This document shows positions 8,023 through 62,508 of a DNA stretch of 64,000 nt, in pieces (position 1 is the stretch's first letter; every line of letters starts with the position of its first letter). The translations under genes and the position numbers were made by a program. Below the pieces are notes generated by a model that saw only the letters and a program-made list of their open reading frames with translations, was not told where the DNA came from and ran no database searches. Source of the DNA: the human T2T-CHM13v2.0 reference genome, Homo sapiens; NCBI RefSeq assembly GCF_009914755.1, contig NC_060934.1. One strand, written 5' to 3'.

Positions 8023-8126
8023 CAATATAAATCTGTCCACAAACTCTATAGTTCACACGATGGGCTGTCCGTCTTTTTAAGGGAATACACCTTCATTGGT
8101 TCAAAACCATTTAAGGTGATGAAACC
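8023..8126 (-). other. CTBP2: CTBP2 non-coding (5'UTR) exon 2, 104 nt
   Basis: Minus strand reads cattcattttgctttcag|GGTTTCATCACC…GGACAGATTTATATTG|gtgagt, with a polypyrimidine tract, AG acceptor and GTGAGT donor. Matches the recalled CTBP2 mRNA leader. Confidence 0.92.
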
Positions 8127-9139
8127 CTGAAAGCAAAATGAATGGAGTCAGTGAAGATGAAGTAGAGATTTTTTTTTTTTGTTTACATCTAGGCATCCTT
8201 TAATTGCATTTTTCCAATGCCTTCGACTCTAAGCTACCAGAGGTTATTAAATGGTTTCATTAAAAATACTATTTGTCTTGCTTTAGTCACACACCAGATC
8301 AAATTAAACAGTAGAGCACCAGAACAAATGAACCCTTTCCATCTATTTTGACACAAAGCCAAGTGTGCAAAAGCAGAAGGTGATATTGTGTCATCACCGT
8401 GAAAATGTCATTTAGCTTTCTCTACATCTCCAAGTAGCAAGCAAAGGGACAAAAGAATCAATACCTTCAAGCAAAAAGTATTACCAACTGTTTTGAGAAA
8501 TATGGAATTATAAAGTGCAAATCATGAGCCCACGGTTTATAAGTGCTATTAGCATAAATGCTGACAACTGTTAATCTACTGTAACTCTGATTAACGGTTG
8601 CAGTTGTCCATTAATAGAAGGCATTTTAACTTACTACTGAAATTGATTACTCAGTTAAGAATTCAATCCTAATGTTCAATAAAATTGCACTTTCTTGGCA
8701 AATGCAATATGAACCGAGGTGATGCATTAAACAGAACTCCCATTTATTTTACTCTACATGGAACAGAGAAGGAATACATGGTGGGACCCACATCATCCGA
8801 ACTACTTCCTATGCACACACAGCTGTGAGAGAAGAGAGCAAAGTTCCTCCTTCTGCGGCTGATGGGGAAGGCAGACAACCTGTGCAGCAGGCATGTCCAG
8901 GTGTCCTTTCTACGGCTTTTCCAGGAAGAAAAGATGGAATTTAACACTGGAGTTGCTATGTAACTGGAGAGCCCATGTATGAAGGTAGTCTTGCTCGAGC
9001 CCCACGAGAGAGGGAAGAGGCACACTCTAAAGACATGAGCTGCTGCAGCCAGGCCTGACATTGCCAACCCCACCTTACAACCAAGTTTCAAATGGTTAAT
9101 ATACAAAAAGGCACGAACCACATTCCCAGCTGCATTTGA

Positions 9140-9788
<649 letters not shown>

Positions 9789-17345: not shown

Positions 17346-18148
<803 letters not shown>

Positions 18149-26480: not shown

Positions 26481-27074
26481 ACAGAAAGAACCACAAACAG
26501 GTTGACCTTAGGTCATGAGACCCGTGCTCCAGGTGAAGATCTGAAATTCAGCCAAGAAATGTGGTCAAACAGAAGATGACCAGGGCTGGGGGCACAGTGT
26601 GTCCTGCCGAACCCGGGGGTGGTGTGCACATTCATTGTAGATGATCAGACCCACCTGTCCGGTTTTCCTAACAAGAGACTGAAAACAATACCAAGACAAC
26701 CTTCCAAAGGAGACTCCAAAACCTCAGCTGGGAACATTTTATTCAGAGCGATTCACAGGAGGCCTGTCTCTGGAAGGAGGAGCACAGAAACACCTGTGAG
26801 GACCAAGGCCCTGGAGGCACAGGGAGAATAACTACTCCAAGTCCAAGTCTGCAAACAGCACACGACAGAGCAGCAACCTCTGCCCGTGAGCTCAAGGAGG
26901 TCCAGGACACGGTCAGGGTTGTTTGTGCTAACGCAGGCTGATGAAACAGAGGACCCTGCACCGAAAAGGGCCCTCTGGGAAGAAAACCCCAGGACAATGA
27001 CATGTGCAACATGCTGGCTGTACAGGGCTTGGAAGCAGGGCAAAGAACCCCCAGGTATAGCCCACAGGATTTCT

Positions 27075-27398
<324 letters not shown>

Positions 27399-36428: not shown

Positions 36429-37572
36429 GATGGTAGCTACTATTATAATTATTCCACCAAATTAATGTATTTCTAATATTCTTGAATGAGGGCAGAGGAT
36501 TTTCTTAAGTGGTCCCCTTTCAAAGTGATTTAATACTGCACACCCCTAAAAGACTGTCTGCCTTGTTTTTTTCTCGACTGTTCATTAGCCCCTGTTTTTT
36601 GGACTCTGGGAGCTTCCAGTCTAGGCCAGCTGGGCCTGGGCATGTAATAGCAAAAGCTACTCACCTGAGCAAGCACCGCTGGAGGGGCTCTCAACTCACT
36701 TCCCTCCAAGTCAGCTGGAATTTTTGGATCCACCCAAGGGAAGCAACTTCCCCACCCAAAGTGTGGAGATAGATGTGGAGCCCCAGAAGGGTTCTGGGAA
36801 AGCATCCTGTATCCAGGACACCATGAGGCCTTGTGGCTGCCTAGAACTGCGACCCTACTGTGCTCACAGCTGCACATCACAGAGCACAGGTGGCTGGTGA
36901 CCTGTGAAAAGGTCCCCAGATCACCTTTCCAGACAGTAAAGAACTTTGCTCTCACCATCCGAAAGCAGACCGGTGGCCACACACATTCGCAACTTCCACT
37001 CAGCGTCTAGCACACCCCTTCCCCAACCCTTGCTGAACTGTCCCTGAACCCTTAATAAAGACACGATGGGGTGTCCACCCACCTTTCAGCTACTAACCCC
37101 ATGTACCCAAGTGTCCTCACACTACACTGGGAAGCCCCGCTGAAATCTGCTAAGCTATGTATGTCTTTGGAGGGTATGTTTCCATCACACTCGCTGCATG
37201 GCAGTTTGTTCACAGACGACCACCCAGAAGAAGCCAAGAATGCTTAGACATTAATTTCAGGCCAGGAATCAAGGTCACATTTAGTCTGAGCTCAAAGGCA
37301 TCAAAGGGTTTTCTCATACTGCAAATGCACGCATACAAGATGCACCGAGATCACGGGAATGCCAGTCAGGGCTGGCCAATCACGATGACTGCCGCTTAAA
37401 CCTGCCCTCAGCCTGACTGATGTGATGAGGGAAGGGGACAAAGAATGAGCTCCGAAAGGACATTTCGGGCAACGACCAGAAAATTAGCAAATGCAGTGAT
37501 CCCCACTTAACAATTTTATAAATTCCAAGACTCATTTCAAGTTTCTCCCAACTGAAAGAAAATAATATCAAG

Positions 37573-37870
<298 letters not shown>

Positions 37871-37889
37871 ATATTAAAAACCATGACGT

Positions 37890-38205
37890 GGCTGGGCATG
37901 GTGGCTCACACCTGCATACCCAGCACTTTGGGAGGCCGAGACAGGCAGATCACTTGAGGTCAGGAGTTTGAGACCAGCCTGGCCAACATGGTGAAACCCC
38001 ATCTCTACTAAAAATACAAAAATTAGCCAGGCCTGACAGACTGGCTGTAATCCCGGCTACTCGGGAGGCTGAGACAGGAGAATCGCTTGAACCTGGGAGG
38101 CAGAGGAGAGGCTGCAGTGAGCTGAGATCACACCACTGCACTCCAGCCTGGGTAACAGAGTGAGACTCTGTCAAAAAAAAAAAAAGAATAAATAAAAATA
38201 AAAAC
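37890..38205 (+). mobile_element. Alu (AluS-type), TSD aaaaaccatga
   Basis: Alu dimer with A-rich tail; aaaaaccatga on both sides. Confidence 0.93.
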
Positions 38206-38638
38206 AAAAACCATGAGGCAATGAGTCAGTTGCAGCTTATATCCCAGAGTGCAATAGGGACTTCCTGCCAAGCATCTCCTCTGCTGGGCACCTGGGCACA
38301 AGTCTCCAGCGCCTTCTCATTACCTCCTCCTGTGAGAGGAACTAGTGACTAGCGTCCTATTTGACGCATAAGGAGCTGGCAGGGTTGAAAGTGGAGCCCA
38401 GGACTGCAAGCATGGCCATCTACCCTCGGGGCCGGCACCAGCCTCGGGGCAGCTGACCTTCCCCACCTCAGAAGCTCTCATTCCTCTGGGCTTTCCACAA
38501 ACCACCCTTCTTGACCACAAAAAGGTGGCCATCCTGACTGGTCTCTACCTTCAGGAAAACAAATGGGGACCTGAGGGCGCTCAACCACCCCAGACCACCC
38601 AGAAGTCACAGGAGCACGGAACAGGAAGCAGGGAGACA

Positions 38639-40237: not shown

Positions 40238-40524
<287 letters not shown>

Positions 40525-42951
40525 TCACCTCAATGGCACTGCATTATCACACCATGTAACATGTTGAAACCCTATGTCTAAAATATTGTATACCTATTTT
40601 TATTTGATTTACTAAATTCTAAAGCTTTTCTAAATCTCTAAAAGGTAGTTTCCCCAGTAATGCATAACTGCTTAATCGGGAAGTGTACAAAACATAATTA
40701 CACTGCCTAAAACTACAATATTGCTTATGGGAATATCTCCGTTCATGCATTCCACTTTATTTTGTATTTAATCTCTATTAAGATGTCTATGTGAAAACAG
40801 ATAGGTATTCTTCATAAACACCATAAATCATAAAGTCATTTCTTTGCTAACTCAAGTCCAAAAGCGGCCCCAAAAGAAACTGCCAGGGCCCCAAAGACTA
40901 TCACTTTCCATATTCAAGCAGACAAGCTCCTTGCACAGAGGCCTCAGTGCAGAGCCCCAAAACACCTAGCCCTGGGCCAATTAGTCAGGTCATAATTTCT
41001 CTCACCATAAATGGCTCTGCATGCAACTCAAAAAGCACCCAGACGCTCCCCAGAAAGCAGTCACTCAAACCAAGAAGAGCAATTCCTTTCTGCTCAAGAC
41101 CCCAGTTACAAACCTCATATCAAGGGGCAAACAGAGTCCCTTAAATCCTTCTTCATCTAAGGACACCCGTGGATGCTCTTTCAAGTTCACCTTTCAACCC
41201 GGGGGACTCCCACCAAAGGCTCCAGACTCTTGAAACTGGATTCTCCTGCTTCCCTTCTGGCCTTCGAATTTGCACCCACCCGCTCATCCCTAGAATGGGG
41301 TCATGTGAATACACAACCATTCTCTGGACGGCCTGGTATTGGTGGAGGAGAACCAGTTCGGATCTCGCTCGATCATTAATTAACTGTGAGCCCAGCCTAT
41401 GCGGCTTGCCAATTCCTCAAGTGGGAAATAATCGCACTGCCTCACAACAGGGTTGTTACTAAAAATAAAATAAGCCAATGTATAACAAAGTACTTCTGCA
41501 AACAGAAACAAGCTAGGTTACCAGCCTCGCTGAAGCCTACTAATTAATAAATTCCCCGATCAAGATAAAAAGGATTTGCCACAAAACGAGTTCACTCTCA
41601 GTTCTAAAACAGCAGGTATCACTCCCAAATCCGCTTGCATCATGATGAAACAGGCTAGAGGCACAAGTGAGGGCCTCGGGGGCGCTCCTGAAGGTTAAGC
41701 ATATTTGCCTGCAGTGGGAAGTAAATGCACCTTTTGCTGATCCATGTTCTTGCTCACACGGGCCAATGTTAAAAACATCGACTCTGTGGCATCCATCTTT
41801 GACTTGTGTACATAGATAGTAATAGTGTGCTTCACTGAGCAGTTCAGATTTTACTAAAATATAATCTGCAAAACCAATTTCTTTTCTAGCAGGTATGCTC
41901 TGACACTGCCCAGCCTCATCTCAATACACACTGCTGCCCGGTCAAGAGTGAAATGTCAAGTGCATCTGAATACGGAACTAGCTCCAATTTTATCAGACAC
42001 CCAGGAAATTTCCTCTGCCTTCCTAGAAATGCCTGGTAATGTTGGAGGGTGGAGAATCCCTCTTCAAAGAATGAGGATGAGTACAGCAGAAATCCATATT
42101 CCAAGTTTCAAATAATTTAGTGGGTTATTTGAGTTATATAAAATCTTCTTTCAACCATTTTTCATGCCAAATGTTCAATAACTAGACTCGAGTGTGTGGG
42201 TGTGTGTTGGGGGAGTGGTTTGTTTTTGAAGAAAGCCAGTCTGTGTGCTGCTGTTGGCAGTTTCGGGCTGGCTGCATCAGGCACCCCCTGGAGGAGGTGG
42301 CTAAAAATACAGATGTTAGGGCTTCTCCATCGGGACGAAGGGTGGGGCCCTCAGGAGACTCCTGGCCAGGGGTGCCTTGGGGACGCCCCTGCTCCAGAAG
42401 CCAACCTTTTGAGCACCCCCAACCCCAGGTACCAGGGCCTCTCTGGGGACTGACTGAGTCACTCGTGAAAACCACCAAGCCCACCCAAGCTTCGTAGTAT
42501 TAAAGGTATCTGCTGTCCCTTGGGGCAGGGTAGGGCAGGGCACGGCAGGGGGCCAGAGAAGGTTGCTAGCACTTATCTGCTCCCTCCTGATAAAACAGGG
42601 CACAAACAGCCACTCCCTGCTAGGAAGAAGAAGGCACAGTTGACGGGAGGATTTGTCTTTCTCAATGACATTCACGCCACCATAACTACTGGGATTGCCA
42701 TGAATCCTACTACTATCACCACCACCACCACCAGCACCACCGTCCCTAATAATAATAATGGTAACAAACAGCTAGCGTGGGAGCACTTCCCACATCTTAT
42801 TCATTGTGCACACTCTCCAGGATTTGCAATTGAAGAATATGACATTCTGGCCCCAGACCCCTGGTCCCTGGCCAGCTGAGATGCCCTTGCATTCCAGCAT
42901 GGGTGGTTTCCCAAGGGCATTTTCAAGGACCATTTTGCTTTTCCAAGTGAG

Positions 42952-43614
<663 letters not shown>

Positions 43615-44647
43615 TCCAAGTGAGATTTTTTAATAGCATGAGTTGAATCCAAAGAAACTGCTGGTCCATGAAATGACCAGCCCACTCTGAAGGTGACAAA
43701 CTAACTGCCGGACAGGCACCTTCCTTACCCCACCTTGCCATTTCACGCACATGACCTACTATTCACACCTGGAGCCCCACAGGAAGCACAGAGCAGTTAA
43801 CACTGGCTGGGTGGAGAAAAGATATTTGAACATTTCAATCAGAAGACATTTGGTGATGCTGTACGCACATGCGTACTGTGCCTGGCCCCTAGTGGGTGCT
43901 CAGTCAGTATCTGTGAATGAATATCCTAGGAGGACATGATTAATTACCACCCCATTGCCAGGGCCTGGGGTCAGGAACATGCTCAAACATCACAGCAGAT
44001 CTGCCACCCAGCTGCACCTGGTCCAGTTACCACAGCTGCTGCTGACTGAGCACCCACAAGAAACCAAACAGGATGCCACCAAGCAAGTCGACAGCCCTGG
44101 TCACTGACCGGCAAACGCACCCATTCCTCAGGGACCTGGGAGGGTGAAGGGAGCTATGATGATGACGTGTGCACAGAGGGAAGGGCAGACACAGTTCCTT
44201 TTCCTCAACAAATATGCTCCTCGGAATGTGGCCTGTCATGCCCACGTTCACTGTGGTTTATGTACTGAGGCCTCAGTAGAGGAGAATTCAAACCTGAGCG
44301 ACCCTTCTCAACAGGCTTCACCTGGGCAGGGTGGCTGGGGCAGCACTGGGCCCCCACCCTGGCTGCCCATCAGGCAAGGCAGTTTTTTTCTTCCTTCTCC
44401 AGGAAGAGAAAGTAGGTCTTAAATAGAAAGTAAATATTTTACTGAGCGTTTCTTGGAGTGACCTAATACGTAGTAACATCCCACAGACTAAAATTAACCT
44501 CGTGAACAGTTTTCAGTTCATTGCTTTGGGCCCCAGGAATCAATGAGAAAGAAGACGGCTGCTCCCAAACTAAGCCAGCCCCACCAGCCACTCCCCTTCC
44601 CTACCACAGGGCACGACATCTTCCAGGTATTTTTAACATAGCACCAT

Positions 44648-45085
<438 letters not shown>

Positions 45086-47637
45086 TGGGAGAGAAGTCCA
45101 GCATTTCTTTCCATCCCTTCTTTGCCACACTTCCTTGTTTTGCCTCTACTAAGCTCTAGGAGGGCAGGACCATCTCTCCTTGGGCCGAGCCTCAGTGTTT
45201 GAAAGGAAGAAAGACATTCACGACCTTCCAGTGGGACCTCTCTGGTCACCAGCCACCAAAGTGAGCACAGCAGTTAGCTCAGTGCTTTCAAAGTGCGCTG
45301 CCGGGGCCCCTAGAGCAAAACTTTGGATCTGAGCCAGGACCCTGACATGCCAAGTAACCACCAGGTTGCAAAACTCCCAGCTACAGGCGTGACCAAAAAG
45401 GTGGTCCATGTGCTGCTGCAGCCCCCTTCCCACTAACCACAGCGAACCCAGGCTCTCCCTCCCACCTTGCCCGCTGCTCTAGAAAACAAAAGAGAATTAG
45501 GAAAGTAAACTCCTTTTTAAGCTTCCTTGCTGAGAAATATTTTAAAAGACTGCTCTGAGGGGCCAAGTAACATACGGGATTTGCTTCTAAGCTCTCGGGC
45601 CCGACTGGGACACAACCAGGGACCCAAAAGCACAACTGGGTTGAGTCATAACCCCCCTCCCTTCATCCTCTACGGACATGAGAGCCTCAACTAAGACATT
45701 CTCGAATTTACCACAGGAGTGTCTTCCTTTGCCCACTATTTGGAGCCATGTGGCCAATTTAGGATAGAAAAATATTACCCACTATTCAAGGCCTTCCTTA
45801 AATGCTGAGGAAGACATCACTGCAGACACAATTCCAACTTTAATTGTGAAATCTCCTGGCTTTTGTCACTTGAAGCCTCATTCTTAATCCCAGGCTTAGC
45901 TGAGAAATGAGAAGGATGTGTGCAAGTGGAGGAAAAAGAATCCTCAACCCTGAGTGAAAAGCATGCGCCGTGGAGGAGCGAGGAGAATGGACACTCTGAA
46001 GATGCTAGGGCTGGGAAACAGGGTGCTGGGGAAAACTGGCTCGCTGGCCTCAGAGCTGCGGCAGGTCCACCACTGCGCCGTGTTCTGCTGGAGGAACCTG
46101 GATGCCAGCTCAGTGGATCTTCTGCCCAGCGCAAAGGATCCCTGAAACCTGGAACAGGACAGGGGACACACCATAGACACGACATGGGCTCTGGAAGACC
46201 ACTCACAAGGCCCGGCTCACAGGAAATGACCATTCATGGGAACCTGCACGCCGCAGTCATTCTCATGCTTAGATGCCACTTTCCAAGCAACAGCCTCTGA
46301 GAAAGCAGCTTCCCCCTTCTCAGTGTCCCAGTGAGGCACCACAGAAAGGAGAGGGCTGGCCCAGGGATGATCCTGGCCCCACCACCCTCTTCCAGGTGGA
46401 GTGAAGTGGAAGGAGACCTGTTTAAAAACTGCAGGGGGCACTTAAAATAGGCTGACTCTATTCATACCCAAGCTGGAGGTGAGCCAGGACACCGGGACTC
46501 ACATGACTGATTTGTCAAGAGACTCCTCCCAGCACTTCCTTGAGTCATCCACAAGACAGAGCAGAATCCAAAGGCCAAGATGGAGGCGGGGGGCACCCAA
46601 CATCCACACCACCCCCGGCCCCACCAGAGCCCCAGCGGAAACCAAGGATTTCCAGAATACACATGTGCTCACAAGTGTACACACGTGTTCACAAAAAGAA
46701 GAGAAGGGTTGTAGAATAGGAAGGTAATCTTATAAAGAAAAGCCTGTTTTTCAGGAAAACCTTCACCTTGTGGGGACCTTACCCTCTATGGAAAGCCAAG
46801 GTCAACCTGGGAGCTCCCGCATCACCTGCTCCGGGTACTCTTCCGGTGGAGCGGGGCTGGTCTCTGGATTTGAAGACACACCCAACTCTGTGCCATTCCC
46901 TGTCAGTTCTCTGATAGCCTCTTTGAAAAGAAGGCTGTTCCCTTTGTTCAGGAGTATTAATTCAAATTCCTTTCTAAGGCCCACACCACACGGATGCAGG
47001 GGAGCGACCCAAAGGAAGTTCACCCGGCAAAACCTAGTTTCTCCCTGGTTTTCACAGGAGTGGTGCAAACAGACTATCACAGTTAGGAGAAATCCTAAGC
47101 ATCTTCCCTGTCTCTTGACCCCCAACTCCCCAACGTGGAACCCACAAACCAGATCCTATTTCAGGTGTGCACATGGCTCCAGTTGAATGCCAGAGGCAAC
47201 CAGAGTTGGGGAGGGGTGCATCCCATGGACCCAAGCCCTCCCTCGAGGGAGATGGGGGGTGGAGGGCAACTGAGATCACACTATCCCAGACCACAAACAT
47301 GGTCTTACCTATTGATGAAATGATACCTGGCCACTAAATCCAATTTTACCACATGAAACCCTAAGCACTGTGAAAGCTACACACATAACCCCAGGAGAGT
47401 GTGCCCATGCATTCTTGGAGTGTGGGGTGGTGCTGCATCAGAGACACACAGATGAGGGCAAGGGAGAAACAGCTTGGGAGGAAAGAAGGAGTCTAGTCTT
47501 GGTTAGTGTGGCAAAGCCATCCCCAGACATTCCCGTGTCCCAGTCAAAGGCCACAAGAAGCCTCGGTCAGCCACAGAGAAGCCAGAGCCAGGCGAAGTTG
47601 GTAGTAACTAGCCAGACTTAATTACCTAAGCTCCCTG

Positions 47638-48068
47638 GCCCTGACTCTTCATTGGTAAAACAGTGACTAACTATCACCTGTGCCTCTGCGAGGACAGCGC
47701 TGTGCTTGGCCAGGGCTGGAGAGCCGATCTCAAGGCAGGTGTCTGGCCTTTTCCCGGACATAGTGAGTCTGTGATCCAGAGTCTGACCCACGTATTCAAC
47801 GGGGCCTGCCTCACTTCCTGCTCTAGGATGTTTTACATTCACTGCACTTTTGGAGTGAATATTCACAACAGCCTGGCTCCTGTTTGGAAGCCTGAGGCAG
47901 GCCCCGTTGAATACGTGGGTCAGACTCTGGATCACAGACTCACTATGTCCAGGAAAAGGCCAGACACCTGCCTTGAGATCGGCTCTCCAGCCCTGGCCAA
48001 GCACAGCGCTGTCCTCGCAGAGGCACAGGTGATAGTTAGTCACTGTTTTACCAATGAAGAGTCAGGGC
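47638..48068. repeat. Long near-perfect inverted repeat: arms 47638-47813 and 47893-48068 (176 bp each), 79-bp spacer
   Basis: Base-by-base comparison shows the arms are reverse complements except 47755(C)/47951(A). The opposite-strand ORFs 47663+ and 48043- share an identical N-terminal translation. Confidence 0.98.
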
Positions 48069-48239
48069 AACGCAACAACACACAATGGCCCAGCGAGCTA
48101 GTGCCAGACACTAAGTAAGTGCTCAAGAAATGGTTGCTCTCTAGTTACTTGAATAACAGGTAGAGCGCACTTGAATGGCTGCATAAGTTTCTGGAGCACC
48201 AAATTAAGTCTGCAAAACATAGAGGCGAACACAGAAATT

Positions 48240-49610
48240 CCTCCATGGAGAAGACGAGGGCAAGACGAAACGGGCCAGATCGCACCGTCCTACCACTCTG
48301 CGCTCGGACAACCTCTAGTCACATGCCTCGCCAGGCTTCAGGTGTTGGGAGCCGCCGGGGTGAACAGCAGAGAACGCAGCAGAGGCGCGCAAATGTCACT
48401 CGTCCTCGACGTGGAGTTCTGCTGAAGGTCTCAGTGGCCCTCGCTGTTTCCCACAGCAACTGCCACTGCGCTATTTGTACTACAAGGAAAACACCCAGAT
48501 TCGAAGGTTATCCAAGAACCGTGGTCACCCCCAAACACTGCCCAGGAGACGAGATCCCAAGCCGGTCAAGTGGAAATGATGCCGCTGTTTACCGTTTGCT
48601 TGCAACTCAGCCACCATCGCGCAGTCAATCAACGAACCTCACCACTCACCACGACCCCAGGAGTCCCCATGAGTGCCCGGAGTCCGCGACCGCTGCGGGG
48701 TGGAGGCGGCTCTGGCCTGGTGCAACCAGGTCCCCGCCCCTGCTCTGAGCCTCGAGTGCGGGCTGGGGGCCAACCTGGTGTCCCGCGTGGTCTCGAGGCT
48801 CCTACCTTGCCGGGGCCTCGCGGACCGGAGAGGGGCCGGCGACCCTGCTGGCTTGAGGCGGCGTCTAGCTGGACCCCCGCCGCCCCGGGTCCGAGCGGCC
48901 CCGCCCAGCACAAAGGCCAGCGGGAGGAAGGAGGAAGTGGGCACGGAGCGGGGGGAGGGGGCAGGGCCCATTCTCACACCTCTCAACGACTTCCCCGCGG
49001 CGGGAAGCGGCTCCATTTACAAGTGTAAAGGCGAGGCGCGAGGTGGGGGGGCCCGGGGGTGTCAGATACCGCGGCCCGCGGAGGGGCCAGGGTGGGGCCG
49101 CCAAGTGCCCTGCGGGGGGAAGAGGGCACAGCTGGGGCGGGGCCGCGCCGCCAGGTGTTCTGGCCCGCGGGGGCGGGGCCTCCAGGTCCACCCGCCGGGA
49201 GGAGAGGGGCGAACCCCAGGGATGGAGGGGGCTTCACCTGGGGCTCGGGAGCCAGGAACCCCGGGACCCCGGGACCCCAGAAGCCCGGACGCCAGGAGGC
49301 CCGTCCTTGCAGCAGGGTGGGGCACCCCCGCGGTCCGGGAAATGCAGGAGACCCCGCCCCCTCCAGGTAGAGCGCGGCCAGGTGTGGCGGACTGGCGCTC
49401 CCCGCAACAGAAGGTCGCGCAGGACACCGGAAGTCGTCCTGGAGTCAGTCTGAGCGGATCGCAGGGGTTCCAGGCGCCCCAGGCCCCCCACACCGCGAGT
49501 CACAGGAACAAGGAGGAAAAACAGCCTCTTTATGACTTGGGGGAGGCAATTCAATATTTCTTCCTGGCATAAAATAGGAATTGCTCTATTTACCCAGCCC
49601 GCAGGAGCGT
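48240..49610. promoter_or_regulatory. Intronic CpG island (possible alternative promoter or enhancer)
   Basis: Abrupt rise in GC and CpG content with multiple GC boxes (e.g. GGGGCGGGGC near 49134 and 49171). Confidence 0.8.
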
Positions 49611-52600
49611 CGTGAAGATTAATGACTGTGAAATGTTTTTAAGATCAAAAACATTCCCAGATTTTACTTGTAGGCACTTATATGTGCATATTGGTATCTG
49701 TACAGCAAAATATACTCTTTATTGATTGCCCTCCTAGTGTGACTTCTATTCCGTAATCTGAAAGCCCCGAGATAAAGGAATCAGGTCTGTCTCTGCCTGC
49801 TCCTGAAACACTAGGAAATATGGGTAGGAAATGTCAGGTCAGCTGGGCATCTACGCTGAGCCTCTATCCAGTCCGCAGGGCAGATAGAGCAATCCAGAGT
49901 GCGGACCACAGCTGAACGTCTGGAGAAAGGGAAAAAACTTTAAGATTATTGGTCACCCCCCACTGGGAAGAAAACACAGTATCCTCCCCAGCTCATTAGG
50001 AGGTGCTCCCAAAGCCTGAGTCTCCATCAGGGTCTCGGGTGTTTGCAGAGCCTTGGCTGGCACTGGGAGCCAATGGTCAGCCAAGTTCTGCCTGTGCCAG
50101 GAGCCCACGCAGCCCATCTGGCCCGGCAGCTCCAACAGCAAGGCCTCCCTGTTCCGAGCAGAGTAAGGCCACATGACCGCACAGAGGACAATGTTGGGCT
50201 TCCCAGGGGTGTCTCCACTCCAGGCTGAACATTCTCAGTTCCCTCAACCGTTCCTGGGACATGGCTTTAAGAGCTCTCTCGGGCCCTGCCCGCTGCTGGC
50301 GCTGGCTGTACTCCAGGTGGGCAGGCCTGGGAGCTGGCTGCAGCAACACCAAGTGGGGTGTCCAGGATCCAGATGGATTTGCAAGCACTGCCCCCACCCG
50401 TTCCCTTGGTCTCCCTGGACCTGAACAAGCAGCGGATAAGCCGACTGTGTTTGCACTTCTAGACTGCACGAAAGACCATCCATCAGCAAAATAATAAACT
50501 CACAGCTAGAGCTCATTTAAAAGGAAAGGTGCACAAACTCCTGGCCTTTCACCCCCTCCAGCAGAGAAACCTCGAATGCTCTGTTTTCCCCTCCAAACTC
50601 TTCTCCTCTCATTTCCCCTCTCCACCCTCCCGCTGCCACACACACACCTGCGGCAGGTACAATACTATCACTTCCAGGTTAGATTCTGGCCACTTACACC
50701 ATAAAATGATTCTTTGCTAGCCTCATTTTATAGATGAGATTTTTAAATTCCATCTTGGAAAAAGAAAAGCCCCATTAGGCCAGAGGAGTTGATCTCCCTC
50801 CACGGTCTAGGTCTTCGGTTCCTTCCAGAGAAACTTCCTCAGGTTCCATGACTCCATAATAAAGTTTTTGTTTGTCCTGGGACGGGACAGATTGCTGGAG
50901 GCCAGATTTCAGGCATGGCTGGAGCACAGCCACGATAAGCTGGACTTTACAAGCCCTGAGCTTGCTTGTGCTGCAGGAAGACCTACACACACTGTCTCTG
51001 TGACACATCCTTTAACGTGGCCCTTCCAGGCTTCTGCCACAACGTGGGCTGGAATGAGACACAGAAATATTGCCACTATTTCCAGACAATCTTTAAGGCA
51101 GCTGACAGTTTCTTTTAGTCATAATTAAGGATTTGTTTTAATGCAAGAAGCACATTTCTGCTGATCAGAGGAGAGCTTTGGAGGAAGCACAAATCAGCAA
51201 TACAATGGAAGGTAAGTATTTTTGTATTTTATAAATGAGAAGGATTTTTAGAACCCCACGGATGAAAAGCCCAGCCCTCCCTCTCCCCCCTCACCCCTGC
51301 CTCCAGGGCTTTTCTGGACTCACAGAAGGCAACAAAACCAAAGGCAAGGCTGGCCACCACCAGGATCAGGGGCAGACAACAGCAGCTATTCAGGGTTCCC
51401 ATCCTTTAAACACCAACCGATCTTTGGGAAAAACGAAGTCTCTATTATTACCTAGGACAAAAGTCACAATTCTCTATAGAAACAAAATCATCACTTGTCC
51501 CATTCATAAGATCCCAACCATTTCATCACAATTTTTGTGAATATTAAGCCAACTCTAGGCAACCATCTGTTAAATTTAGTTAGGTAAACAGCTAAAGCAG
51601 ATCACTTTCTAAAACATTCACTGAGGGAGGGACTAGGCATATACACATGCAAACTACAACTGGTTCTCACCGAGTGTCGTTGCTAAAAAAACTGAACAGG
51701 CTTCAGACACCAACAATGGTTAATGATCTACATATTATCTACATATTCCACTTAAGGTGAGGGTTAGAAAGTGAGGGGCCAGGAATGCACCTCCCTTAAG
51801 CTACAGAGTTGGTTCCACTTTGGGACCTCGGCTCCCACGTGGAAGGAGAAGGGCTTTGTGAATGGGGGAGGAGCTTTTTCCGAAATGGCAGCAGCTACGC
51901 AAAACATGAACATCCAGCAAAAACTTATTTTAGCTGCATTCTCCCTAATGCTACCAACAGATTAAAAACTACTTTAAAGTCAGGAGAGGAGTAAAAATAA
52001 ACACAACTTCCTCCTGTGACTTAAGATGCCTCCTTTCTGAAGTTGAATATCATTTCCTAAAATCACATTTCGAGGGGGTAGAAAAGGTCTGTTTACTTTC
52101 CTTGAGGAACTCTTACTATCTGCTGTTAAAATCGTTCCTCAAAAAAGCAGATTACTGAGAAGAGAAAGCACACGACGTTCCTTAGCAGTCCAGAAAAGAC
52201 CACCTTCTAAGAAAAACTCTGGAAAGGGGGCAGGCCAAATCTCCATGCCCGGCAAAGACGGATGAATGTGCCCCTGGTTCCCATCCCGTCCACAGCTCCT
52301 GAAGTTTCTGTGTTCTCCAGCAGTCAGAAGAATGAAGGCGAAACTAGCCCTTGGCTCCCATGGTCAACATTCCACACAAACAATGGCCTGGCTCTCTCCC
52401 TATTGTACATTCTGTATTCATTTGTGAATCCCCCCTTTTTTTTTTTACACAATGTGCAAAGCCCTTCTTTTCACAGGCGAAGTTCTGAATGCCCAAGTGC
52501 AGCCATAATTTAGGCTTTAAACATTAATAATGATAGCTAAAAGCAAACTCCAGATTATGCCCAAACATTAATTTGTGAATATCATTAGAGTCACACTGAT

Positions 52601-58100: not shown

Positions 58101-60140
58101 GGGGGGGGGGGCAAAGGCGGGGTCTCTTTTTGCAAACCAATGACACAACCCCACATGGGCCGGCCTCGCCCCCTTCAGATACTCCTCACTACAAATCGGC
58201 TCTCTCGGGGGATTAGTGGCTCCGCGAAAGTGCACACAAGCGCGGCGGGCGGGAGGGCCAGGGGCCGGGCGCGGCGGGCACTCCCTAGCCCGGCCCCGCC
58301 CGGGAGGCCCTCGGGAGGCGCGGGGGCCTCGGTGGCAGGGGCCGAGGTCCTGTCGCGGTGGCTCGGGGTCCGCTGCTCCCCTGGCCCTTCATCCTCCTCC
58401 GCCCCTTCCACGTGGGGTACCGGGCAGCCGGCCACGTGGGGGAACGCGAGCCCCGGGTGGCCCCGGTCCCATGGGGCCCCGCCCAGCCAGCGGCGCCGAC
58501 CAGCCCCCTTCCCGGCCCCCGGGCTCCAACTTCCTCCTGGTGCCCCGCACCGGCCGCTTCTGCCTTCTCAGGCCCGCGGGGTCAGGCGCGGGCCGGCCAC
58601 AGGGGGCACTTGCGCTCCCCAAATCCAGATCCGGGAGACCGTGCCGGAGAGGCGGCGACCGCTGTGGGTGCGCAGGGAAGGGCCCTCTGTGCTGCAAGTT
58701 GCAGCAGTGCTGTGCCCTAAAAGAAGCAAAACATTCTTACACATTGAAAAAAAAAAAAAAGGTTCCCTCTTGCTGCCTGGATCTCGCCGGGGCATTTGAG
58801 AAGCCCTGTGTTGGGTCGGAGCCCCGGGTTTCGAGGAGGGAGGCGCGCTGCGGCGTGGGGGCCCGCGACTCGGGGTCCTGGGCTTGCGCGGCGGCCCGGA
58901 GCCCACGCCGTCCTGACGTCTCAAGGTTGGAGTCTGCACAGCGAGCCTGGGAATCCAGGCCCAGCGGCCGCTCGCGGCCCAACGAGCACCTGGGCTAAAT
59001 TCCCCGCCCGTGACCCGCGACGTCCGAGCGCCGTCTCCGGAAGGGAGCTGGTGGCCGTGGAGTGTGGGGTCTTCTCCCTGCGCCCCAGGGCCCCCCAAAC
59101 TCTTCTCACTACCCTGAGTTCGGCGTGCGTCCTCCAAGAATCCCTGGGTGGGCTGAACTGAGCCCTTAGGATCGATTTGTTTAAAAACCCTATTGAGATA
59201 TTAGGAGCTGGATTGAGATGTCGAGCAGGAAAGGAGTGGGAGGGGTCTGAGGTCCCGCCTTTGGAGGCCGCAGGGACCGCCATTCCGCGAACCCAGCCGC
59301 GCGGTGTGGTCTCCTCCATCCCTGAGTGCCCCGCGCCCTGCAGAGCCGAGGAAACTTACAGCCAGGGCCAGGGGGCCGGAGGAGAGGCCACCGAGCTGCA
59401 CGACCCTTTTCTGCATCCCAAAGAGCGTTGCTCCAGGCCTCCCAGTCTTCATTAAACATTTCTTAAATCCTGCCCCAGCCCGCCGCGGGGCTTGTTTGCC
59501 AAAGCGCACCAGGTGCGTTGCGGCCTGAGCGGCCTGCAGTGGAGGGGCCGGGACTATCGAAGATTGCTTAATCACTCAACAAGATTTTAAAACGTGATTG
59601 AAGACCGCCTACCTGTGAGGGCAGCGCCGACCAGGCTTTTCTTGCCCGCTAGTCCACGTAATGCGGTCGCTAAGAAGCCCGCAGCAGGGTTTTCGCGTGA
59701 CCTTCATAGGGCCTGGCCAGGCCAGCTGAGGGGCGCGCCGGGCTGCGCTTCCATCGAGGAACCTCCGCACATGCAATCACGGTTGTCTCGTCTTCTGGCA
59801 ACCCTGGATCTCCACAAACTGATCTTCAGGGTGCTTCTCTCTTCAGCAGTTTTGCCTCAAGGGCATGGCGCCTCAGCTAGTTTTTGGCTGTAAACAAACC
59901 GCGGCCACCGCCAGGCTACCGGGTTACCAGTACCTGTTCTTCGGAGTTTCTTAGGCATAAACTATAAGAACTACAAATAAAGATTTTCTGCTTCCTTATT
60001 TCACAGAAGTCTTTGGTTCTGAGTGGTCTTCTTTTCTCAGGAAGAAACCACAAAAAGCCTGATTTTCCATATCACTCCTTCACTTTCACGTGTTCTATAA
60101 ATTTGAATTCTGACTTAGAAAGTATTACTAACATGTTCTT

Positions 60141-60755
<615 letters not shown>

Positions 60756-60914
60756 GAGAAAGTATTATTAATATATTATTTGTTTTGAAGACATTAAAAG
60801 CAAGGCATCCTGAGAGCTGAAAAGTATTTCTCACTTCACTTTACCTGCATTTTAAAATATGGAGCTCATTTGCCCCCAACATGTGAATTATTTCATACTA
60901 TTTTTTTTAAGATG

Positions 60915-61153
60915 TTGCAAACAAAAAACCCAATTCAAAAATGGCCAAAGACTCAATAGGCATTTCTCCAAGGAAGGTAGACAAATGGCCAACGGCCAGT
61001 AAGCACATGAAAAGATGGTTGGCCTCACTGGTCATTAGAGACATGCAAATCAAAACCACGATAAGTTACTACTTCATGTCCACCGGGATGTCTTTTATCA
61101 ACAAAAGAGAAAAAAACGTGTATTGAGGAGGATGTGGAGAAATGGGAACCCTT
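60915..61153 (+). mobile_element. L1M ORF2 3' fragment
   Basis: aacccaattcaaaaatggccaaagactcaataggcatttctccaagg…aagcacatgaaaagatg…atgcaaatcaaaaccac…gaggatgtggagaaatgggaaccct. Confidence 0.85.
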
Positions 61154-61554
<401 letters not shown>

Positions 61555-62121
61555 TTATACCTCCTCGGGAGCACTTCTGATGTCTGTAGGAACCCAGGGG
61601 CTGAAAAAGGCCCGTGGGACCGGCCTGCGGCTGCATCACAGCCTGCCTCCCCCGCTACAATCAAAGACCTCTAACCGAGGTTCTTATTTCTCAGCTTCCT
61701 ATCTTTCCTATTTCATTTCCAGGAACCAATGGTTGTAGAAAAAAAAGATAGTGGCCCTAGATAATGGTGGGTCCTTTTATCGGAACTGTTTTGTGCAATA
61801 AAATGGACTAGTTGTGTGCACTTGAGTATTTCAAGGGTCTGTGCAGCGAGAGTTACTGGGAGTTGGACTTAACTGTATTGTTACTCACCTATCTCTGTTA
61901 TTCAGGGTTCAGCTCACTTCAGAACCGCAATTATCTGAAGCTCTCAGTTGCTGTCCTCAGTGGATGTGGGAATTTTGTTGCAATGTTTTATAGAATAACA
62001 GTGCTCTCTTTGGCTATAATATAATCACTATGTGATTCATAATTAATTCTAATCAGTGAATACATATTGCTTTTATAGATGCCATGGCCCTTTCCAACTA
62101 TGCATTGAAAATCCTAGGCTC

Positions 62122-62508
<387 letters not shown>

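What the first reader, a model, noticed from the sequence alone, without database searches (positions are those of the whole stretch)
47638..48068. 176-bp non-Alu inverted repeat that forms a fully paired hairpin in the CTBP2-sense RNA
Seen: arms 47638-47813 and 47893-48068 are reverse complements at 175/176 positions around a 79-bp spacer. They are not Alu, L1 or transposon TIRs, and keep 6 and 5 CpGs. The one difference (47755 C / 47951 A) is a C·A mismatch on + strand RNA but a G·U wobble on the minus strand, so the CTBP2 pre-mRNA can form an uninterrupted 176-bp duplex. The repeat starts about 170 bp downstream, in CTBP2 orientation, of the intronic CpG island. Established: such short-spacer, near-perfect IRs are unstable and rare in mammalian genomes, and long perfect dsRNA is a substrate for ADAR, Dicer and PKR. 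Inference: either a very recent fold-back duplication, or an older hairpin kept homogeneous by arm-to-arm gene conversion and acting as a hairpin-RNA/endo-siRNA source, editing target or cruciform. This is the best candidate for an undescribed system in the window.
Basis: partly seen in the sequence, partly recalled or inferred. Interest (0 to 1): 0.85.

Follow-up and report, generated by a model that had tools for sequence, protein, structure and literature searches.

The report
Young inverted duplication in CTBP2 intron
A unique 176-base stretch in a CTBP2 intron is present twice in opposite orientation, almost certainly a young replication-error duplication, so the intron RNA can fold into a long perfect hairpin for which no function is shown.

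Summary
Arms 47638-47813 and 47893-48068 are complementary at 175 of 176 positions around a 79-nt spacer. The CTBP2-sense (minus) RNA folds into an uninterrupted 176-bp stem with one G·U pair.

The sequence is single-copy in T2T-CHM13. It has no target-site duplication and no diverged extension, and it reaches no Rfam family's threshold.

The only arm difference is a CpG transition. That fits one event followed by one ordinary mutation. With mutation rates recalled from memory, the age is about 2-4 My, and 0.05-21 My across the two 95% intervals.

The best reading is a young inverted duplication made by replication template switching or fold-back. This is a published way to make perfect intronic hairpins in one step (PMC5453318, PMC10710096). 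It is probably neutral and predicted to be an ADAR substrate.

Nothing supports an "undescribed system". The lineage test, editing and small-RNA checks could not be run.

New in passing: processed pseudogenes show an alternative CTBP2 first exon (48911-48593, minus strand) that is absent from the supplied gene table. The hairpin starts 525 nt downstream of its donor.

The parts
47638..47813 (.). Left arm of the inverted repeat (176 nt, 6 CpG, GC 56%). In CTBP2-sense RNA it is the 3' half of the stem.
47814..47892 (.). 79-nt spacer or loop (GC 46%, no CpG). It holds a small 7-bp hairpin of its own (ATTCACT / AGTGAAT).
47893..48068 (.). Right arm of the inverted repeat (176 nt, 5 CpG). In CTBP2-sense RNA it is the 5' half of the stem.
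47755..47755 (.). The only arm-to-arm difference. It is C here (a CpG) and pairs with A at 47951. This gives C·A in plus-strand RNA and G·U in minus-strand RNA. It is a CpG transition.
47814..47818 (.). CTTCC, complementary to GGAAG at 47886-47890. It sits next to the inner junctions but is offset by the two bases CC (47891-47892). It may be a 5-bp extension of the repeat with a 2-nt indel, a microhomology used in the switch, or chance.
   Evidence: BLAST extension to query position 181; extra 5 pairs and a 2-nt bulge in the fold
48200..49550 (.). CpG island upstream of the repeat in CTBP2 orientation.
48593..48911 (-). Alternative CTBP2 first exon that is not in the supplied RefSeq table. Processed pseudogenes on chr18 and chr22 join it directly to exon 8023-8126. 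A GT donor lies at 48592-48591. The inverted repeat starts 525 nt downstream of that donor.

Best explanation
This is a young, single-event inverted duplication of unique intronic DNA. During replication the nascent strand switched to the complementary template (or folded back on itself), copied about 176 nt backwards, and then returned to the original template. In the four-point template-switch model this is type '3-2-1-4' or its mirror '1-4-3-2', and it leaves two reverse-complement copies 79 nt apart. One CpG later mutated in one arm. The structure is most likely a neutral passenger. It lies in the long 5' intron of CTBP2, 525 nt downstream of the donor of an alternative first exon. It is therefore transcribed with the pre-mRNA and can fold into a 176-bp duplex. 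By inference that duplex would be edited by nuclear ADAR and destroyed with the intron. Shown: the structure, its uniqueness, the type of mismatch and the transcript context. Inferred: the mechanism of origin, the age, the editing and the neutrality.
For: 1. The arms are 175/176 complementary with sharp borders. The best local alignment of the left 1-kb flank against the reverse complement of the right flank scores 18. Shuffled controls give a mean of 14.25 and a maximum of 18, so no older, decayed palindrome surrounds the repeat.
2. The sequence is single-copy. Arm plus spacer gives 2 of 2 matches at this locus only. A 2.9-kb query gives 19 matches: 2 are this locus and the other 17 all lie in window 48577-48912, outside the repeat. 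The same search found 75-82% matches for that other segment, so arm paralogues of similar divergence would probably have been seen.
3. There is no target-site duplication, and no Rfam family reaches its gathering score (0 of 6 matches).
4. The single difference is a CpG transition. With recalled mutation rates, half of the expected arm differences fall at the 12 CpG positions of each arm. The maximum-likelihood age is 1.9-3.8 My and the two 95% intervals together span 0.05-21 My. P(1 or fewer differences) at 30 My is 0.003 or less.
5. The mechanism is published. Template switching creates perfect inverted repeats in one event. Type 1-4-3-2/3-2-1-4 made up 31% of 794 high-confidence human-chimp events (PMC5453318 section 6). 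Such events gave over 6,000 hairpins in primates, and the resulting miRNAs are enriched in introns (PMC10710096 abstract and passages).
6. A 79-nt spacer is compatible with persistence. Inverted Alus with a 52-bp spacer did not stall replication in eukaryotic cells (PMC7999016 passages).
Against: No outgroup or second human genome could be examined, so the key prediction (one arm missing in an outgroup) is untested. Microhomology at the switch points is not clean. The 5-bp CTTCC/GGAAG match is offset by 2 nt from the arm ends, and the outer junction shares at most 1 nt. I did not find length distributions in the passages I read, but the published genome scans were designed for 'short-range' events and a 176-nt copy may be longer than typical; this size comparison is inference. 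Arm-to-arm gene conversion would give the same near-identity. The dating uses mutation rates from memory and assumes no conversion. Editing is inferred and was not observed.
Confidence: 0.72

Rival explanations
1. This is an older hairpin that is kept nearly perfect by arm-to-arm gene conversion and/or selection because its RNA is used. Possible uses are as a hairpin-RNA or endo-siRNA precursor, as a dedicated ADAR or dsRNA-binding-protein target, or as a regulator of the nearby alternative CTBP2 promoter and first exon.
For: In the sense RNA the single difference is a G·U pair, so the stem stays uninterrupted. The repeat lies only 525 nt downstream of a splice donor and about 130-170 nt from a CpG island. 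Expressed, structurally stable inverted duplicates have been argued to be enriched and conserved in mammals (PMC5398296 abstract).
Against: A C-to-T change gives G·U on one strand in any case, so with one mismatch the 'wobble on the sense strand' has a prior of about one half. No Rfam family reaches its threshold. No paper in the held library links CTBP2 with an inverted repeat, a palindrome or intronic dsRNA editing. The known conversion-maintained palindromes I recall have arms of kilobases to megabases, and 176 bp is near the lower limit for efficient mammalian homologous recombination (recalled). Human somatic Dicer processes long dsRNA poorly (recalled).
Confidence: 0.08
2. This is an assembly fold-back artefact, or a change private to the CHM13 cell line, and not a feature of human genomes in general.
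For: Only one assembly could be inspected. Fold-back chimeras are a known failure of some long-read libraries (recalled).
Against: An artefactual fold-back copy should be an exact complement or carry random, indel-type errors. Here the one difference is a CpG transition, the signature of a real germline mutation after the duplication. With recalled rates, P(at least one difference) within 100,000 years is only 0.03-0.05, which argues against a very recent private event. A consensus assembly would also need the same chimera in most reads (inference).
Confidence: 0.07
3. This is a relic of a palindromic mobile element: a MITE-like DNA transposon, or two inverted copies of one repeat family.
For: The overall shape (two inverted arms around a short loop) resembles a MITE.
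Against: It is single-copy in 3.1 Gb and has no target-site duplication. It is not among the masked stretches listed by the hub. 99.4% arm identity does not fit DNA transposons, which have been inactive in the primate lineage for tens of millions of years (recalled).
Confidence: 0.02

Closest known systems
Template-switch mutations (four-point model, types 1-4-3-2 / 3-2-1-4) that create perfect inverted repeats and intronic hairpins (Löytynoja & Goldman 2017, PMC5453318; Mönttinen et al. 2023, PMC10710096)
   Same: A reverse-complement copy of adjacent unique sequence. Near-perfect pairing consistent with one event. [quoted passage not shown]
   Different: The copied tract is 176 nt, whereas the published scans targeted short-range events and miRNA-sized hairpins. 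No ancestral state was available here to solve the four switch points. No small RNA is known from it.
Fold-back inverted duplications with a spacer, formed by FoSTeS/MMBIR-type replication errors (MMBIR model PMC2621351 and ODIRA-type model PMC10766183, both seen only in the listing)
   Same: An inverted duplication with a short unique spacer. Weak or short microhomology at the junctions.
   Different: Those events are usually kilobases to megabases long and are described as pathogenic or amplification-associated. This one is 176 bp and sits silently in an intron.
Catalogued non-repetitive predicted dsRNAs and inverted duplicates of the human genome (dsRNAscan, PMC11838218; Chen et al. 2017, PMC5398296; Barak et al. 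2020, PMC7006430)
   Same: An intramolecular, intronic, non-repeat duplex. 96% of predicted dsRNAs in protein-coding genes are intronic.
   Different: It is far more perfect and longer than the typical member. Median non-repetitive predicted dsRNAs are 75-144 bp with 14-30 contiguous pairs, against 176 contiguous pairs here. It is below the 300-bp cut-off used for the 'immunogenic' lists. CTBP2 does not occur in the 3 held supplementary files of PMC7006430.
Conversion-maintained palindromes of the sex chromosomes and PATRRs
   Same: Near-identical inverted arms around a short spacer.
   Different: Sex-chromosome palindromes have kb-Mb arms carrying genes (recalled). PATRRs are spacer-less and reported as more than 90% AT (PMC7999016). 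This repeat is 56% GC with a 79-nt spacer.

Membership tests
Template-switch / fold-back inverted duplication | A tract is present as a reverse-complement copy of nearby sequence in cis | tested here: met
   Arms are 175/176 complementary and 79 nt apart
Template-switch / fold-back inverted duplication | The source sequence is local and unique, not a dispersed repeat | tested here: met
   The only matches in the 3.1-Gb assembly are self and the inverted arm. No other hit to the arms appears in the 2.9-kb query
Template-switch / fold-back inverted duplication | The ancestral or outgroup allele lacks the second copy, and the four switch points can be solved | not testable with these tools
   No primate genome or second human genome is held. 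Scans of genome contigs and viral contigs for a stray orthologue gave 0 matches
Template-switch / fold-back inverted duplication | Microhomology at the switch junctions | tested here: inconclusive
   CTTCC/GGAAG lies beside the inner junctions but is offset by 2 nt. The outer junction shares at most 1 nt
MITE / DNA transposon | Multiple copies, terminal inverted repeats and a target-site duplication | tested here: not met
   Single copy. The only shared 6-mer, TGGCCC, is not at the right border
Known structured RNA or miRNA family (Rfam 15) | Score at or above the family's gathering threshold | tested here: not met
   0 of 6 matches at E up to 1 reach the threshold. The 3 that overlap the repeat score 26-36 bits against thresholds of 53-100
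Conversion-maintained palindrome | Arms identical within a species but diverged between species | not testable with these tools
   No orthologous sequences are available
ADAR substrate / editing-enriched region | A long duplex in a transcribed region | tested here: met
   An uninterrupted 176-bp stem in the CTBP2-sense strand. It lies inside the CTBP2 intron according to the hub table and downstream of an exon shown by pseudogenes
ADAR substrate / editing-enriched region | Clustered A-to-G changes in RNA on both arms | not testable with these tools
   No RNA-seq or editing database is held.
Hairpin-RNA / endo-siRNA locus | Dicer-dependent 21-23-nt reads from both arms | not testable with these tools
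   No small-RNA data are held

The most novel reading that the evidence does not exclude
The hairpin is not a passenger. It is a lineage-specific 176-bp perfect duplex placed 525 nt downstream of an alternative CTBP2 first exon. It is kept perfect by conversion or selection. It acts in cis on that promoter or exon, for example by recruiting ADAR or other dsRNA-binding proteins co-transcriptionally, or by yielding small RNAs. That would make it a primate-specific regulatory hairpin born in one template-switch event.
Probability: 0.06. Interest if true: 0.7.

Novelty: new member of a known kind. Interest (0 to 1): 0.3.

Why it matters
If confirmed in other human genomes, this is one of the cleanest natural long duplexes made of non-repeat sequence inside a broadly expressed gene: 176 contiguous pairs and single-copy. 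That makes it a convenient endogenous test case. It can show how nuclear ADAR, dsRNA-binding proteins and intron decay handle perfect dsRNA. It can also show how large a single template-switch event can be in the human germline. Both arms are identical, so short reads, editing calls and small-RNA reads multi-map here. The locus may therefore be under-reported in existing catalogues. If it is only a neutral young duplication, as I think likely, it is ordinary.

Tried and rejected
1. Rfam scan of 46000-50000 at E up to 1 gave only sub-threshold generic hairpin matches (Plastid-psbJ-5 twice, mir-434) over the repeat. I rejected these as family membership.
2. I looked for an older, decayed palindrome around the arms and found none.
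3. I looked for a target-site duplication and found none.
4. I looked for paralogues or a repeat family in the own genome and found none for the arms.
5. I tried to find an orthologue or a second human copy as a stray sequence in genome contigs and viral contigs, using a 30-nt spacer pattern. Both scans gave 0 matches. This was a long shot and says nothing about other genomes.
6. I tried to decide which arm is the copy from junction microhomology. The two scenarios are symmetric and cannot be told apart.
7. Literature searches: CTBP2 with 'inverted repeat' (16 papers, 14 listed), with 'A-to-I/dsRNA/intron' (4 papers) and with 'palindrom/intron' (18 papers, 10 listed). From the listings, none is about this structure.
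8. Supplementary tables that might list the locus: PMC7006430 has no CTBP2 in its 3 held files. Those of PMC11838218 and PMC5398296 were closed.
9. Earlier findings of this scan were not open.
10. In PMC7954356 I searched for event-length statistics and found none in the passages returned.

Full report
OBSERVATION. The window holds an inverted repeat with arms 47638-47813 and 47893-48068 (176 nt each) around a 79-nt spacer. The arms are complementary at 175 of 176 positions. The only difference is C at 47755 against A at 47951. In context the left arm reads TCCCGGA and the reverse complement of the right arm reads TCCTGGA, so this is a C/T transition at a CpG. The arms have 6 and 5 CpGs and the spacer has none.

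Folded as RNA, the minus (CTBP2-sense) strand gives an uninterrupted stem of 175 Watson-Crick pairs plus one U·G. Its MFE is -423.6 kcal/mol and z is -42.8, with 0 of 100 shuffles as stable. The plus strand has one unpaired position, with MFE -415.5 kcal/mol. As single-stranded DNA the same hairpin has MFE -259.4 kcal/mol and z -38. A scan of the whole window found 153 inverted pairs. Among the 25 longest shown, this is the only one at 90% or more. The other 24 are 75-88% complementary, lie 1.4-52.6 kb apart, and fall in stretches the hub lists as masked repeats.

WHAT IT IS NOT. It is not a dispersed repeat. The arm plus spacer matches only itself and its own inverted copy in the 3.1-Gb assembly (2 of 2 matches at this locus). 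A 2.9-kb query around it gave 19 matches. Two are this locus, and the other 17 all fall in window 48577-48912, outside the repeat. That search detected 75-82% matches for the other segment, so arm paralogues of similar divergence would probably have been seen. The tool warns, however, that only the best candidates are scored.

There is no target-site duplication. The best shared word at the borders is a 6-mer that is not at the right border. No older palindrome surrounds the arms: the best flank-to-flank local score is 18, against a shuffled mean of 14.25 and maximum of 18. No Rfam family reaches its gathering score (0 of 6 matches at E up to 1). The three matches over the repeat are generic hairpin hits of 26-36 bits.

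ORIGIN. The facts are sharp borders, unique local source sequence, near-identity, and a single difference of the fastest mutational class. The simplest account is one duplication event followed by one ordinary mutation. The published mechanism that produces exactly this layout is replication template switching. In the four-point model, the type '1-4-3-2' and its mirror '3-2-1-4' create an inverted repeat. That type made up 31% of 794 high-confidence human-chimpanzee events (PMC5453318, section 6 read). [quoted passage not shown] They are reported to have produced more than 6,000 hairpins in primates, and the resulting miRNAs are enriched in host-gene introns (PMC10710096, abstract and passages).

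Beside the inner junctions, CTTCC (47814-47818) is complementary to GGAAG (47886-47890) but is offset by CC (47891-47892). This may be a 5-bp extension of the original copy with a later 2-nt indel, a microhomology used in the switch, or chance. The two scenarios (left arm copied, or right arm copied) are symmetric, so I could not tell which arm is the copy.

AGE. The mutation rates here are recalled from memory and do not come from any call. They are about 0.4-0.8e-9 per year for non-CpG sites and 5.5-11e-9 per year for CpG transitions. With them, the expected rate of arm-to-arm differences is 2.6-5.3e-7 per year, and half of it falls at CpGs. One difference gives a maximum-likelihood age of 1.9-3.8 My. 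The two 95% intervals together span 0.05-21 My. P(1 or fewer differences) is 0.003 or less at 30 My. The event is therefore young on a primate scale. Whether it is human-specific, shared with African apes or still polymorphic cannot be said. Arm-to-arm gene conversion would invalidate this clock.

TRANSCRIPT CONTEXT (new). The only part of the 2.9-kb query with paralogues is window 48592-48911, inside the CpG island. I fetched 3 of the matching loci. In 2 of the 3 (chr18 L003 and chr22 L005), the match to 48911-48592 is followed directly by a match to 8127-8022, the annotated CTBP2 exon 8023-8126, at 90-95% identity. These are therefore processed pseudogenes of a CTBP2 mRNA in which an exon ending at 48593 is spliced to that exon. 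The minus strand reads ...AAACG|GTAAAC at that point, a canonical donor at 48592-48591. The third locus (chr11, L004) matches 48912-48577 only, runs 15 nt past the donor and shows no second exon. It is left unexplained. The four other acrocentric hits share the chr22 end points but were not fetched.

This exon is not in the RefSeq table supplied with the finding, though it may exist in other annotation sets. In transcripts from this promoter the hairpin begins 525 nt into a roughly 40-kb intron. In transcripts from the upstream promoters it is also intronic, according to the hub table.

HOW IT MOST LIKELY WORKS. Shown: the sense pre-mRNA can form a 176-bp perfect duplex. Inferred: such a duplex in a nuclear intron would be an excellent ADAR substrate. 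It holds 77 adenosines, of which 52 do not have the disfavoured 5' G neighbour (the neighbour preference is recalled). It would be removed with the intron. At 176 bp it is below the 300-bp length said to favour MDA5 (PMC11838218 passages), and an intron is not expected to reach the cytoplasm. Long, nearly perfect duplexes are tolerated in pre-mRNAs far more than in mRNAs (PMC7006430 abstract and passages).

At the DNA level a 79-nt spacer should blunt instability. Inverted Alus stalled replication in primate cells with a 12-bp spacer but not with a 52-bp spacer. This is attributed to the 100-200-nt Okazaki initiation zone of eukaryotes (PMC7999016 passages). I therefore read the structure as a neutral passenger. 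Nothing I could run shows editing, small RNAs or an effect on CTBP2.

RIVALS. (a) An older hairpin kept perfect by conversion or selection and used as RNA (0.08). The G·U on the sense strand is suggestive but has a prior of about one half for a single transition. No supporting data exist. (b) An assembly artefact or a change private to CHM13 (0.07). The CpG-transition difference argues for a real, not brand-new, germline allele. With recalled rates, P(at least one difference) within 100,000 years is 0.03-0.05. (c) A mobile-element relic (0.02), contradicted.

COMPARISON AND NOVELTY. The structure works like, and most likely is, a template-switch or fold-back inverted duplication. The features I could test are met (inverted copy in cis, unique local source). 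Microhomology is inconclusive. The defining ancestral-state test could not be run.

As a predicted dsRNA it belongs to catalogued classes. A genome-wide scan found 4.3 million inverted duplicates in human (PMC5398296 section 12). dsRNAscan predicted about 0.5 million non-repetitive dsRNAs, with median lengths of 75-144 bp and 14-30 contiguous pairs (PMC11838218). This repeat is an extreme member by perfection and contiguous length, but it is not a new kind.

I found no paper that mentions it. The searches were CTBP2 with 'inverted repeat', with 'A-to-I/dsRNA/intron' and with 'palindrom/intron' (judged from listings). CTBP2 is absent from the 3 held supplementary files of PMC7006430.

VERDICT. 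This is a real and striking structure with an ordinary explanation. It is a new member of a known kind. Interest is 0.3, mainly as a clean natural test substrate and as a large template-switch event. The decisive test is a simple alignment to ape genomes, and it remains to be done.

Noticed in passing
window 48593-48911 (minus strand); L003 2463-2873; L005 2272-2602: An alternative CTBP2 first exon inside the CpG island is absent from the supplied RefSeq table. Processed pseudogenes on chr18 and chr22 join it directly to exon 8023-8126. A canonical GT donor lies at 48592-48591.
   Followed up: yes
G000 C22:4686271-4686497, C15:2399103-2399329, C21:3000806-3001032, C14:1992213-1992439, C13:5663037-5663263: The same CTBP2 pseudogene fragment (80-82% identity to window 48592-48830) occurs on the short arms of all five acrocentric chromosomes. 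A second, shorter group of hits lies about 0.2 Mb away on each. It looks like a pseudogene caught in the shared acrocentric duplications. Only the chr22 copy was fetched.
   Followed up: partly
L004 2953-3276 (G000 C11:43676952-43677275): A chr11 copy at 75% identity matches window 48912-48577. It runs 15 nt past the splice donor and shows no match to the next exon. It does not fit the simple processed-pseudogene picture.
   Followed up: no
window 47837-47860: The spacer holds its own small hairpin: ATTCACT and AGTGAAT, 7 bp, 10 nt apart.
   Followed up: no
window 9131-9765, 17413-17713, 27065-27336, 37547-38218, 40238-40530, 42943-43618, 44654-44956, 60134-62402: About a dozen repeats of roughly 300 bp (Alu-like by length and copy number, not classified here) in both orientations give many 75-88% inverted pairs within the same CTBP2 intron. 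These are the ordinary source of intronic dsRNA in this gene.
   Followed up: no
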